Part shown: piece by piece, positions 290-63,060 of the stretch | Layout of the letters: the number at the start of each line of letters is the position of its first letter | Position numbering within the stretch: the stretch's first letter is position 1 | Source of the DNA: Hydrurus foetidus | Taxonomy: Eukaryota | Reading direction: 5' to 3' | Length of the DNA stretch: 64,000 nucleotides | Assembly (NCBI GenBank): GCA_900617105.1 | Contig: UYFQ01000032.1 | Location: 682,001 to 746,000, forward strand | The notes under the pieces: model-generated | Databases searched by the model: none | The model's input: the letters and a program-made list of their open reading frames with translations, nothing else | What the model was told of the DNA's origin: nothing | Translations under genes and position numbers: made by a program

Positions 290-358
290 TTTTTTAGAGC
301 ATCCAATTGAGCTTTACCGCTTATGAAATATGCTAGAGCAGCTACGGTATTTGTAGCA
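290..358 (-). repeat. AT-rich ~62-bp dispersed motif, copy 1 (intergenic, after htpG)
   Basis: Reverse complement reads TGCTACAAATACCGTAGC TGCTCTAGCATATTTCATAAGCGGTAAAGCTCAATTGGATG; aligns by eye with 8 other copies. Confidence 0.8.
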
Positions 359-371
359 CTCCTTTGATCTT

Positions 372-407
372 AAAACCCCAGTTGGCTTTGTGCTGCTGGG
401 GTTTTTT
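372..407. terminator. Bidirectional intrinsic terminator between convergent htpG and kup
   Basis: AAAACCCCAG...CTGGGGTTTTTT inverted repeat with A/T tracts on both sides. Confidence 0.8.
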
Positions 408-427
408 GCTGCCGGACGGATTGCCCC

Positions 428-59490: not shown

Positions 59491-60534
59491 TCAAACCTTT
59501 ACAGCGGTGTTGTAATCCAGCGCCGCATCGGCCAGCAGCTCCAAGCACAGTGCTTCGTAGCTGATTCCCGCAGCACGGGCCGACATGGGCACCAGCGAAT
59601 GCCCGGTCATGCCGGGCGAGGTGTTCAATTCCAGCAAGTACGGTTGGCGCGTGGCAGCGTCGATCATCACGTCGATACGCCCCCAGCCCCGGCTGCCCAA
59701 CACGCGGTAAGCCTTGAGCACCAGCTGCTGAATGGCTTCTTCTTCGCCCGCTGGCAAGCCGCAGGGCACCAAATACTTGGTGTCGTCGGTGAAATACTTG
59801 TTTTGGTAGTCGTAATTGCCATCCGGCGCAACGATGCGAATCACAGGCAAAGCGCGGGCGCTGTCACCCGTGCCCAGCACCGGGCAAGTCACCTCGTCAC
59901 CGGCGATGAACTGCTCGCACAGCACATCGGCATCAAGCTGAGCGGCTTTGTCCACCGCCTCAGCCATGCCCGCCTCGCTCACAACCTTGGTTAAACCAAG
60001 GGAAGAGCCCTCACGTGCAGGCTTCACAATCACCGGCAGACCCAGCTCTTCGGGCACAGCGGCCACCTGCTGGCTGCTGTAAGCACCACGGCGCAACAAG
60101 GCGTAGCGCGGGGTGGGCAAGCCTTCCGCCGTCCACACCCGTTTGGTCATGATTTTGTCGATGGCGATACTGGACACCATCACGCCTGAGCCTGTGTACG
60201 GAATACCCAGCAGCTCCAGCGCACCCTGCACCGTGCCGTCTTCACCGTAACGGCCATGCAGCGCGATGAAGCAGCGCTGAAAACCTTTGCGCTTGAGTTC
60301 CGACAGTTCGCGCTCAGCCGGGTCAAACGCATGGGCATCCACCCCCTGCCCTTGCAGCGCCTTCAGCACGCCCGCTCCTGACATGAGGGACACCTCACGC
60401 TCCGCTGAGCGCCCGCCCATCAATACAGCGACTTTGCCGAAACTTGCCCCCACGCTTGTCACTTCGTGTACTGCGCTGCCCCCCGAGGGGGACGTACCTT
60501 GTTTGGGGCGGCCCGGCGCTACGGTTGTGCTCAT
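59491..60534 (-). CDS. ddl: D-alanine--D-alanine ligase with atypical N-terminal extension
   Basis: [34 protein letters not shown]. Confidence 0.97.
60446..60518 (-). repeat. GC-rich palindromic element inside the ddl 5' end
   Basis: Reverse complement CGCCGGGCCGCCCCAAACAAGGTACGTCCCCCTCGGGGGGCAGCGCAGTACACGAAGTGACAAGCGTGGGGGC; single copy in this window. Confidence 0.6.
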
Positions 60535-61943
60535 ACCAACGCTCCCAAGGCCACCACTTTGCCCGACACCGCCCCAATGGAACCCGCGCCCATGCAGATC
60601 ACCACATCCCCATCGCGGGCGTTGTCCAGAATGGCTTGCGGCATACCAGCGATATCGTCCACAAACACCGGCTCCACCTTACCAACCACCCGCAGGGCGC
60701 GGGCCAGCGAACGGCCATCGGCGGCGACGATAAGCGCTTCGCCTGCGGCGTACACCTCGGCCAGCAGCACCGAGTCGGCGTAGCCAATCACCTTGATGAA
60801 ATCTTCAAAACAATCCCGAGTGCGGGTGTAGCGGTGCGGCTGGAACGCCAACACCAAGCGCCGCCCGGGGAAGGCTCCGCGTGCCGCCTCAATCGTTGCG
60901 GCCATTTCCACGGGGTGATGGCCGTAATCGTCAATCACCTCGAACGTACCGCCACCATGGGCTACGGGAACCGCAACACTGCCATAACGCTGAAAACGAC
61001 GGCCCACGCCTTTGAACTCGGCCAGTGCGCTTTGCACCGCCGCATCAGGCACGTTCAACTCGACGGCGATAGCGATGGCGGAGAGCGCGTTCAGCACGTT
61101 GTGGCGACCCGGCAAATTCAGCACCACGGCTAAATCAGGCAAAGTCACGCCATTGCGCCGCTGCACGGTGAAGTGCATTTGCCCGTCCACCGCACGCACG
61201 TCCACCGCACGCACTTGAGCACCTTCGTCAAAGCCATAGCTGGTGATGGGGCAGGTCACTTGGCTGATGATGTCGCGGATAGCCGCATCGTCAGTACACA
61301 AAATCGCCGCGCCATAGAACGGCATGCGGTGCAGAAAATCAACAAACGCCTTCTTCAGGTTGTTGAAGTCGTGACCGTAAGTTTCCATGTGGTCAGCGTC
61401 AATGTTCGTGACCACCGCCATCACAGGCAGCAGGTTCAAGAATGAGGCATCCGATTCGTCCGCCTCCACCACGATGTAATCGCCACTGCCCAAACGTGCA
61501 TTGGCTCCGGCACTGTTCAAGCGGCCACCGATCACGAATGTCGGGTCAAGCCCTGCAGCGGCCAGCACACTGGCCACCAAGCTGGTGGTGGTGGTTTTGC
61601 CGTGCGTACCGGCGATGGCAATGCCCTGCTTGAGGCGCATCAATTCCGCCAACATCAGCGCACGCGGAACCACCGGAATGCGCTTAGCGCGGGCAGCGAT
61701 GACTTCTGGGTTGTCCGCTTTGACCGCCGTGGACGTGACCACCGCGTCCGCATCGGTGATGTGGCTGGCTTCATGGCCGATGTAGGTGGTGATGCCCAAA
61801 CCACCCAAGCGCTGCAAAGTAGCGCTGTCAGCCAGGTCAGAGCCCGAAATGACATAACCCAGGTTGGACAGCACTTCGGCAATGCCGGACATGCCAGAGC
61901 CACCGATGCCGATGAAGTGAATGTGTTTAACAGCGTGTTTCAT
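60531..61943 (-). CDS. murC: UDP-N-acetylmuramate--L-alanine ligase
   Basis: [36 protein letters not shown]. Confidence 0.98.
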
Positions 61944-61968
61944 GGTTGTTTTTGATTTTTTGTTCGAT

Positions 61969-63060
61969 TTATTTTTGAGCCAAGGCCTCACAGGCCGCGA
62001 CCACTTGGGCCGTGGCATCCCTCTTTTGCATCTTTTGAGCGCTTACCGCACACTCCATCAGCGTAGAGCGCTCTAATTTTCGTAGCATTTCAAACAAAAA
62101 CTGTGGGGTCAGGTCTTGCTGTGCTACACACCAACCGCCGCCTTGATCGACCAGAAAGCGGGCATTGCCGGTTTGGTGGTCGTCCACCGCAAACGGAAAA
62201 GGTACAAACAGCGCAGCAGCCCCCACAGCGGCAATTTCCGTCACGGTGCTGGCACCGGCCCGGCAAATCACCAGATCCGCATCGGCAAACGCCTGGGCGG
62301 TATCGTCGATGAAAGGCGTGAGTTCTGCACTGACCCCTGCCTGGGCGTAGTTGGCACGCACCGCATCGATCTGCTTGGCCCCGCTTTGGTGAACCACCAC
62401 AGGCCGCGACGCGACGGGCAACAAGGCCAACGCTTGCGGCACGATCTCGTTCAGCGCTTTGGCACCCAAGCTGCCACCGATAACCAAGAGTTTCAGCGGC
62501 TGATCCTGCACGCTGCCCCGGCTCGCAAAGCGCTCAGCGGGAGCCGCTTGCTGGGTGAACGCCGTGCGCAGCGGGTTGCCCACCCATTGGGCTTTGCGCA
62601 GCACGTTCGGGAAAGCCGTGAAAACGCGGCTCGCCACAGCAGCCAGCACCTTGTTGGCCATGCCAGCGATGGAGTTTTGCTCATGCAGTACCAACGGCTT
62701 GCCACACAGCACGCTCATCAACCCTGCCGGAAAGGTGATGTAACCCCCCAGACCCACCACCACATCGGGCTTGACGCGCTTCACGATGGAGATGCTTTGA
62801 GTGCAGGCTTTGAGCAAACGCACGGGCAACATCAGCAGGGTTTTGAAGCCTTTGCCGCGCACGCCCGAGAAATCCAGCACCTCAAACGGGAAACCGCGCG
62901 GCGGCACCAGCTGGCTTTCCATGCTGTTCGGGCCACCCAGCCAGTGCACGCGCCAGCCTTTGTCGCGCAGGGCTTCGGCCACAGCCAAACCTGGGAAGAT
63001 ATGCCCGCCCGTGCCACCGGCCATGACCAACGCAACAGGCGCATTCAAACGGGTTGTCAT
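61969..63060 (-). CDS. murG: Lipid II GlcNAc transferase MurG
   Basis: [34 protein letters not shown]. Confidence 0.98.
62024..62087 (-). repeat. AT-rich dispersed motif, copy 9 (inside murG, sense)
   Basis: Reverse complement TGCTACGAAAATTAGAGC GCTCTACGCTGATGGAGTGTGCGGTAAGCGCTCAAAAGATGC. Confidence 0.78.

What the first reader, a model, noticed from the sequence alone, without database searches (positions are those of the whole stretch)
290..62087. Recurrent ~62-bp tripartite DNA motif, about every 7 kb, written into conserved protein-coding genes
Seen: nine degenerate copies, each a sharp AT-rich island in GC-rich DNA, at 290-358(-), 11413-11475(+), 21225-21284(+, lnt), 29173-29234(-, fadB-like), 31013-31078(+), 42853-42918(-, rnb), 45206-45266(+, aroE), 48134-48197(-) and 62024-62087(-, murG). 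The shared layout is an 18-bp quasi-palindrome (T/C)GCTA-[8 mostly A/T]-(T/G)AGC, about 6 bp, a second loose palindrome CGC-N11-GCG followed by TAGAG-like bases, then an A/T tract near position 50. The two palindrome centres are about two helical turns apart. Copies occur on either strand and in different reading frames of their host genes, so the conservation is at DNA level rather than protein level. No transposase or target-site duplication is visible. Known analogues: Rickettsia palindromic elements (repeats inside ORFs) and dispersed chromosome-organising sites such as matS, SlmA sites and strong gyrase sites. Inference: a lineage-specific cis-site system for a nucleoid, topology or segregation protein, selected strongly enough to constrain codons of essential genes, or alternatively an old domesticated MITE. 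I recall similar sequences in Comamonadaceae genomes but know of no assigned function.
Basis: partly seen in the sequence, partly recalled or inferred. Interest (0 to 1): 0.88.

Follow-up and report, generated by a model that had tools for sequence, protein, structure and literature searches.

The report
Genome-wide self-DNA tag of Comamonadaceae
A 67-base DNA motif recurs every 4-8 kb in many Comamonadaceae chromosomes and their temperate phages, sits at the same codons of essential genes across genera without lengthening them, and is likely a protein-read 'self' tag that spreads through DNA exchange, as the uptake sequences of Neisseria and Haemophilus do; its reader is not identified.

Summary
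The nine copies are real: a profile trained only on other genomes finds exactly these nine, and synonymous recoding destroys all five in-gene copies. The motif is about 67 bp: a family-wide dyad GCTA-N9-TAGC, a lineage-specific second box centred 23 bp away, and A/T tracts phased at 10.7-10.9 bp. It is abundant in 70 of 251 family genomes and nearly missing from the rest of the order. In murG, lnt, aroE and rnb it lies at the same codons in motif-rich genomes only, usually with no length change, and old sites carry each host's own spelling, so it evolves in place rather than jumping. It is rare on plasmids, present in temperate phages, more evenly spaced than chance, not clearly polar, and shows no hairpin covariation. 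Best reading (0.45): an uptake-sequence-like signal under molecular drive. Fragments were listed as unexplained motifs in 2017 (PMC5217627); my searches found no description of the whole element or a function. Against uptake: competence genes do not track it, and Verminephrobacter, reported to take up DNA selectively, shows no such motif pairs in that paper.

The parts
291..358 (-). motif copy, intergenic, downstream of kup
   Evidence: 36.2 bits with the independent matrix; kup by NCBIfam; bounds
11413..11480 (+). motif copy in the convergent gap between an RNase HI-like gene and a HAD-like gene
   Evidence: 36.8 bits; missed by leave-one-out nhmmer
21225..21292 (+). motif copy inside lnt, antisense, codons 130-149
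   Evidence: 33.1 bits, recoding p<=0.003; same codons in 15 of 16 motif-rich genomes, 0 of 10 motif-poor
29167..29234 (-). motif copy inside the fadB-like gene, sense, codons 443-464; lineage-specific site
   Evidence: 24.9 bits, recoding p<=0.003; absent from 3 of 3 other motif-rich genomes whose protein is colinear over the site
31013..31080 (+). motif copy, intergenic, downstream of an acyl-CoA dehydrogenase gene
   Evidence: 48.7 bits
42851..42918 (-). motif copy inside the RNase II-family gene, antisense, codons 388-410
   Evidence: 24.2 bits; site in 8 of 11 motif-rich and 0 of 32 motif-poor orthologs
45206..45273 (+). motif copy inside aroE, sense, codons 174-194
   Evidence: 17.5 bits; site in 10 of 14 motif-rich and 0 of 36 motif-poor orthologs, length change 0 to +4 aa in both classes
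48130..48197 (-). motif copy over the 3' end of a cytidylyltransferase-like gene and the gap before ruvC
   Evidence: 49.4 bits; matching site in relatives L001 and L015
62020..62087 (-). motif copy inside the 3' end of murG, sense, codons 325-346
   Evidence: 30.1 bits; site in 16 of 17 motif-rich and 0 of 10 motif-poor orthologs

Best explanation
The element is a fixed-geometry 67-bp DNA signal spread over Comamonadaceae chromosomes, and it is likely a 'self-DNA' tag read by a DNA-bending protein complex of the natural-transformation pathway, so that fragments carrying a better match would recombine back into relatives more often and the tag would accumulate by molecular drive. Shown: fixed spacing, two dyads, phased A/T tracts, family-wide abundance, old sites kept at the same codons, new sites born in place, lineage dialects written onto old sites, rarity on plasmids, presence in temperate phages.
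For: In-place evolution: murG 16 of 17 vs 0 of 10, C-terminal stretch 52-55 aa in both classes (60 in G218); lnt 15 of 16 vs 0 of 10; aroE 10 of 14 vs 0 of 36; rnb 8 of 11 vs 0 of 32; fadB site only in this lineage. Dialects: 8 of 8 held-out in-gene sites score best with their own genome's second-box matrix; 7 of 9 window sites score best with that of the nearest relatives. Star-like divergence without recent-copy subfamilies; dependence only between neighbouring A/T bases. Information content 54-61 bits, far above the roughly 12-13 bits needed to find about 700 sites (my arithmetic), which drive can explain. Spacing more even than random (CV 0.86 p=0.026; 0.70 p=0.005; 0.68 with 0 gaps <1 kb vs 8.2 expected). 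Strong reading-frame bias. Plasmids: 0 matches of the published Polaromonas pair in 859 kb against 125 copies reported for the genome; 1 relaxed match in 1.12 Mb against 2.5-16.9 per 100 kb of chromosome. Temperate-type phages carry it (6 sites in 40 kb of G306, 3 in 35 kb of G310); 0 of 3 named Rhodoferax/Curvibacter phages match the relaxed pattern. Fewer sites in compositionally atypical DNA in 3 of 3 segments. The same properties are reported for USS/DUS (PMC2817400 abstract; PMC6776037, PMC7811141, PMC2397512 passages). Acidovorax temperans and A. facilis are naturally competent (PMC4212676).
Against: No reader found: ComEC in 66 of 71 genomes, ComP_DUS/PilE-type pilins in 66 of 71, HHH_3 (ComEA and Tex) in 36 of 36, regardless of motif; no motif-specific gene in pilin, comEC or comEA neighbourhoods. 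Verminephrobacter eiseniae, reported to take up DNA selectively (PMC4212676, indirect competition assay), has one unrelated motif pair in the 2017 supplement, although that method listed 10-15 copies of the dyad in Variovorax. Two dyads point to two-fold symmetric proteins, typical of cytoplasmic DNA binders, while DUS and USS are short and asymmetric (established knowledge). It is 2-6 times longer and sparser than DUS/Hin-USS, and close pairs, common for USS (PMC7811141), are depleted here. Enrichment in convergent gaps (29 of 47, 16 of 40, 7 of 28) also fits a supercoiling role. Phage records were mostly chosen because they carry the motif, and the host status of the three motif-free phages was not tested.
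Confidence: 0.45

Rival explanations
1. Binding sites of a lineage-specific cytoplasmic protein (two dimers or a tetramer that bends DNA) that organises the chromosome or relieves supercoiling about every 5 kb; each site is kept by host selection.
For: Two dyads 23 bp apart, T-N11-A spacing in the first (LysR-like geometry, resemblance recalled), A/T phasing at 10.7-10.9 bp; symmetric change of both arms of the second box between lineages without covariation inside a genome; even spacing; enrichment between convergent genes (PMC5217627); sites kept at the same gene junctions in diverged phages, e.g. recT-recE in 5 loci down to 34% protein identity.
Against: Near absence from 1.1 Mb of plasmids including 257-353 kb replicons; 54-61 bits is far more than a nucleoid protein needs; strict counts vary continuously from under 20 to 720 per genome and the motif seems lost several times; no macrodomain bias; MatP not found in 5 of 5.
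Confidence: 0.3
2. Donor-side drive: the motif is a start signal for packaging or export of chromosomal DNA (gene transfer agent, transducing phage terminase, relaxosome-like nicking), read in the cytoplasm, and accumulates by recombination in recipients.
For: Reconciles dyad symmetry with drive-like genomics; about 11 of some 30 distinct phage loci have the site next to terminase, portal or capsid genes (my count by eye).
Against: That excess fades in contigs over 30 kb (about 3 of 14, by eye); phage sites are several per genome and scattered; conjugative plasmids lack it at any origin-like place; no packaging or export gene was tied to it.
Confidence: 0.1
3. A MITE, REP or RPE-type repeat that spread by copying or insertion and was then domesticated or tolerated.
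For: High information content and sharp ends; few half-sites; one phage allele pair differs by a 43-bp block at the methylase-terminase junction (L306 vs L284); G162 lnt is 13 aa longer and has a full own-dialect copy; a 60-bp direct repeat containing a site flanks a small ORF in phage G306; window-clade rnb is about 5 aa longer than most orthologs.
Against: No length change at murG, aroE, fadB or most lnt sites, also against outgroups; old sites carry the host's present dialect; no subfamilies and no consistent likeness of neighbours; no common target duplication in the nine copies; weak hairpins close to column-shuffled controls; the conserved HUH transposase has its own GGGGTCAG repeats and occurs with or without the motif; plasmids are spared.
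Confidence: 0.08
4. A transcription-factor regulon, terminator or structured RNA.
For: Many copies lie near 3' ends of genes (PMC5217627).
Against: Both orientations to genes, 13-42% of copies inside genes, depletion between divergent genes in G162 (3 of 76), no functional theme among 84 downstream genes, no Rfam match, no base-pair covariation.
Confidence: 0.03

Closest known systems
Spaced motif pairs GCTTAT(N)5AAGCG (Acidovorax ebreus) and ATAGCT(N)22CAAAAG (Polaromonas naphthalenivorans), Tong, Schliekelman and Mrazek 2017, PMC5217627
   Same: They fit parts of this element (second box; end of first dyad plus tail); also mostly intergenic, often between convergent genes; the supplement lists the first dyad in Polaromonas, A. 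ebreus and Variovorax, and 140 pairs for Rhodoferax ferrireducens.
   Different: In the parts I read they are separate unexplained pairs; not assembled into one 67-bp element, with no family range, dialects, in-gene orthology, phage or plasmid pattern, or function.
Uptake signal sequences of Pasteurellaceae (USS) and DNA uptake sequences of Neisseriaceae (DUS)
   Same: Hundreds of dispersed copies on both strands, written into permissive coding positions with frame bias, lineage dialects, phased A/T tracts (USS), accumulation in temperate phages, scarcity in foreign DNA.
   Different: 67 bp with two dyads against 10-32 bp asymmetric motifs; one per 4-8 kb; no inverted pairs as terminators; no sequence likeness; uptake bias untested; receptor unknown.
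Dispersed chromosome-organising sites (matS/MatP, SlmA sites, strong gyrase sites)
   Same: Dyad DNA sites that can lie inside genes.
   Different: Hundreds of copies spread evenly round the chromosome, much longer, MatP not found.
REP/RAYT and TIRYT repeats; Rickettsia palindromic elements; BRE of Bordetella and Comamonadaceae (PMC3110155)
   Same: Family-limited dispersed repeats, often after genes, some inside ORFs.
   Different: No stable hairpin, GTAG only a minor variant, no insertion length in most coding copies; BRE is a GC-rich 90-bp repeat of different sequence (compared by eye with three supplement sequences).

Membership tests
DUS/USS | Increases DNA uptake by competent cells | not testable with these tools
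   needs an uptake assay
DUS/USS | Over-represented, dispersed, both strands, formed in place in coding DNA | tested here: met
DUS/USS | Lineage dialects on orthologous sites | tested here: met
   8 of 8 held-out sites prefer their own genome's matrix
DUS/USS | Scarce in foreign replicons, present in temperate phages | tested here: met
   phage sample not unbiased
DUS/USS | Host has competence machinery that tracks the motif | tested here: inconclusive
   ComEC, pilins and ComEA present with or without motif
DUS/USS | Short (10-32 bp) asymmetric core matching a known dialect, often as inverted pairs in terminators | tested here: not met
   67 bp, two dyads, close pairs depleted
matS/MatP | MatP encoded | tested here: not met
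   0 of 5 motif-rich genomes; E. coli control positive
matS/MatP or SlmA/Noc-type sites | Confined to or excluded from a chromosome domain | tested here: not met
   sites round the whole chromosome of G121 and G222
Chi/KOPS | Strong polarity with replication direction | tested here: not met
   G121 145:155, plus-strand density 27 vs 31 per Mb either side of dnaA (my count of listed rows); G222 37 of 56 leading, p=0.022, weak
REP/RAYT | GTAG-tagged GC-rich hairpin | tested here: not met
   ATAG dominates; second-box folding energy -1.4 to -4.1 kcal/mol, near column-shuffled controls
REP/RAYT | Cognate HUH transposase flanked by the repeat and co-occurring with it | tested here: not met
   Y1_Tnp in 35 of 36 genomes of both classes, flanked by GGGGTCAG repeats of the TIRYT type; one motif copy often lies just downstream
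MITE/RPE | Insertion of fixed length with empty sites and target duplication | tested here: not met
   equal length at murG, aroE, fadB, most lnt; exceptions: 43-bp phage allele pair, G162 lnt +13 aa
BRE (PMC3110155) | GC-rich 90-bp sequence of supplement list S1 | tested here: not met
   by-eye comparison with three listed sequences
Rfam RNA families | Covariance-model match | tested here: not met
   none at the copies in the window at gathering score; 3 weak matches below gathering score in 60 kb of G162 at E<=1

The most novel reading that the evidence does not exclude
Probability: 0.55. Interest if true: 0.88.

Novelty: new variant of a known kind. Interest (0 to 1): 0.74.

Why it matters
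Sequence-specific DNA uptake is established in two bacterial families; a third, with a much longer and symmetric signal, would show how general molecular drive is and would mark gene-exchange boundaries in a family that is common in freshwater, wastewater and biodegradation. Either way the consensus, the dialects and the nested motif-free lineages (Ramlibacter/Caenimonas, Limnohabitans) make the question directly testable, and the dialects give a host-prediction marker for temperate phages.

Tried and rejected
No whole genome is held for the window, so genome-wide figures come from relatives. BRE checked and rejected. blastn of single copies against plasmids and phages gave only short chance-level hits; a tblastn of aroE against plasmids and of phage RecT against named phages added nothing. 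Competence genes as co-occurring factor: uninformative. Autoregulated DNA-binding gene downstream of sites: none recurring among 84 proteins. Conserved HUH transposase beside gltB: has its own repeats, rejected as cognate. Packaging-site enrichment in phages: not robust. Local copying: neighbour identity slightly higher in G162 (0.590 vs 0.581) and G121 (0.524 vs 0.505) but not G222 (0.502 vs 0.511). Sequencing runs: no RNA holder listed; contigs laid on 42400-48400 were patchy mixtures and not used. Whole phage records were read for only 2 of 8 intended. The careful murG tree did not finish; the quick tree was used. Earlier-finding look-ups returned nothing. Literature searches that found no description of the whole element or its function; most subscription papers are outside the library.
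Full report
Observation. Leave-one-out nhmmer recovers 8 of 9. A matrix trained without any window sequence finds exactly the nine, at 17.5-49.4 bits, and nothing else at 8 bits or more. Synonymous recoding removes the five in-gene copies (each above all 300 recodings; 0 in-gene hits in 20 recoded windows). Five copies are inside lnt, a fadB-like gene, an RNase II-family gene, aroE and murG; four are between genes or over a gene end. Mean gap 7.7 kb. No whole genome is held for the window. Its nearest aroE relatives are unclassified Betaproteobacteria MAGs (89% and 83%), then Comamonadaceae, and a quick murG tree places it among them.

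Anatomy. From 640 kb of G162, 400 kb of G121 and 400 kb of G222 I took 159, 58 and 60 sites; one Markov-5 resample each of the G162, G121 and window-group segments gave 0 hits at 12 bits. Layout: dyad GCTA-N9-TAGC at positions 1-17 with an A- or T-tract spacer; a second box at about 22-47, centred at 32; A/T tracts near 50-54 and 62-66; sharp end near 70. AA/TT/AT steps recur every 10.7-10.9 bp. The first dyad is shared; the second box differs by lineage (G121 GCCCA..TGGGCT, G222 GCGCAT..TAGCGCT, G162 AGGCAATAAATACGCCGGCTA). Within a genome the arms do not covary as base pairs, and dependence is between neighbouring tract bases; hairpins are weak and near column-shuffled controls, a little stronger in G222. 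Information content is 54-61 bits (39 for the small window group). Inference: it is read as double-stranded, bent DNA by symmetric protein(s).

Range. The strict dyad pattern occurs 20 or more times in 70 of 251 family genomes (my count of the table), 1-19 times in 43, never in 138; the reversed control is at most 3. In 201 genomes of the order only three reach 10. Among named genomes Polaromonas has 200-598 (one has 15), Ramlibacter 0-17, Caenimonas 0-6, Limnohabitans 0 in 5 of 5. On the murG tree motif-poor lineages nest among motif-rich ones (4 changes, 2 forced by strong branches; single gene, quick tree), so repeated loss is likely but not proven.

Evolution in place. The site lies at the same codons in murG in 16 of 17 motif-rich and 0 of 10 motif-poor genomes (exception G162), with the same protein length; lnt 15 of 16 vs 0 of 10, though only one of those ten is a close relative; aroE 10 of 14 vs 0 of 36; rnb 8 of 11 vs 0 of 32 (30 aroE and 16 rnb rows without a genome count were set aside, none scored above -3). 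The fadB site is missing from 3 of 3 other motif-rich genomes with a colinear protein, so it is probably a new birth by substitution. Between distant G121 and G162, 4 of 9 ortholog pairs with an in-gene site share it at the same place (80 pairs). Old sites use the host's current dialect in 8 of 8 held-out cases, some by small margins. Against a purely stepwise origin: half-sites are few, G162 lnt is 13 aa longer, and two close phages differ by a 43-bp block that makes or removes the site. Block origin is also reported for DUS (PMC2397512, section 9).

Placement. Sites run round the whole chromosome on both strands. G121 shows no replichore bias; G222 a weak one (37 of 56, p=0.022); G162 has 61:98 in the segment read. 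Spacing is more even than random. With a home-made gene caller, 66 of 159, 20 of 58 and 8 of 60 sites are in genes; gaps with a site are 29 of 47 convergent, 58 of 262 tandem, 3 of 76 divergent in G162, 16 of 40, 28 of 161, 7 of 61 in G222, 7 of 28, 23 of 154, 7 of 49 in G121. Downstream genes have no theme.

Other replicons. Four P. naphthalenivorans plasmids (859 kb) have 0 matches of the published pair, about 24 expected at chromosome density (125 copies from PMC5217627; chromosome length recalled). Five plasmids give 1 strict and 1 relaxed match in 1.12 Mb; these mark three full sites, in mdeB and around an ATPase gene in a BREX-2 operon; the plasmids were not scanned whole with the matrix. 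IMG/VR gives 44 loci, mostly among temperate-type phage genes, a few being weak low-GC matches. 25 of 40 phage records match a relaxed pattern, controls 0, but 17 were chosen for carrying it. Two records read at length have 6 sites in 40 kb and 3 in 35 kb. Three named Rhodoferax/Curvibacter phages have 0 relaxed matches and one doubtful 15-bit hit; their lytic life is recalled except for the Autographiviridae label of one. Phage sites fall into host-like dialects.

Mechanism. Every genomic property above is reported for USS/DUS: frame bias and permissive coding positions (PMC2817400, abstract), dialects and accumulation in temperate but not lytic phages (PMC6776037, passages), A/T-tract shape effects and drive without fitness benefit (PMC7811141, passages). 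Acidovorax temperans, A. facilis and Verminephrobacter are competent (PMC4212676, passages). I therefore commit to an uptake-type drive signal at 0.45. The weak points are real: no reader was found, competence genes do not track the motif, V. eiseniae shows no such pairs in the 2017 supplement, and two dyads suit cytoplasmic dimers. A chromosome-structure site (0.30) and donor-side drive (0.10) remain open; MITE/REP/RPE (0.08) and regulon/RNA (0.03) are disfavoured.

Prior knowledge. PMC5217627 (passages, section 13, searched rows of supplements 2 and 3, first part of 3) lists fragments as potential novel motifs without function. BRE (PMC3110155: abstract, passages, supplement passages) is different. 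The conserved HUH gene matches the TIRYT description (PMC6006769, passages). Searches found no account of the whole element. Earlier notes of this scan describe the same family in other genomes; they are leads, not support: one pointed me to PMC5217627 and one to the in-step change of the central box, both then tested here. My uptake reading arose from PMC4212676 before that look-up.

Verdict. Real, family-wide and unexplained; partly glimpsed in print. It works most like an uptake sequence but is not shown to be one. New variant of a known kind; interest 0.74.

Noticed in passing
L514 (plasmid pPNAP01, NC_008757.1, about 186070 and 187430): Two strong motif copies (58 and 55 bits) in direct orientation flank exactly one ATPase gene that lies between pglW and pglX of a BREX-2 operon; may be a cassette or chromosome-derived piece.
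   Followed up: partly
L535, L536, L543 and other loci: A single-copy HUH (TIRYT-like) transposase gene is syntenic upstream of a glutamate synthase-like gene across Comamonadaceae, with conserved GGGGTCAG inverted repeats, i.e. apparently domesticated; the neighbour's name is recalled from its sequence.
   Followed up: partly
L457-L476: ComEA of many Comamonadaceae has a long Lys/Ala-rich, histone H1-like C-terminal tail of variable length, in motif-rich and motif-poor genomes alike.
   Followed up: no
L510:16587 and 16995 (phage G306): A direct repeat of about 60 bp that includes the first dyad flanks a small ORF, like a moron inserted at the site.
   Followed up: partly
L214:729 and 3008: Two closely similar copies in inverted orientation flank terS-terL in one phage family.
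   Followed up: no
L257, L258, L276, L277, L278: The motif fills the gap between recT and recE in phages down to 34% RecT identity, its end abutting the recE start codon.
   Followed up: partly
window:36808-39770: Two tandem HD-GYP/NosR-type phosphodiesterase-like genes on the minus strand.
   Followed up: no
window:48949-57324: An rRNA operon (50035-55380) lies between lpxC and ftsZ, at the end of the dcw cluster, and holds no motif copy.
   Followed up: no
G297 (L077 genome): murG, fadB and comEC appear in pieces in this complete genome, likely frameshifts or sequencing errors.
   Followed up: no
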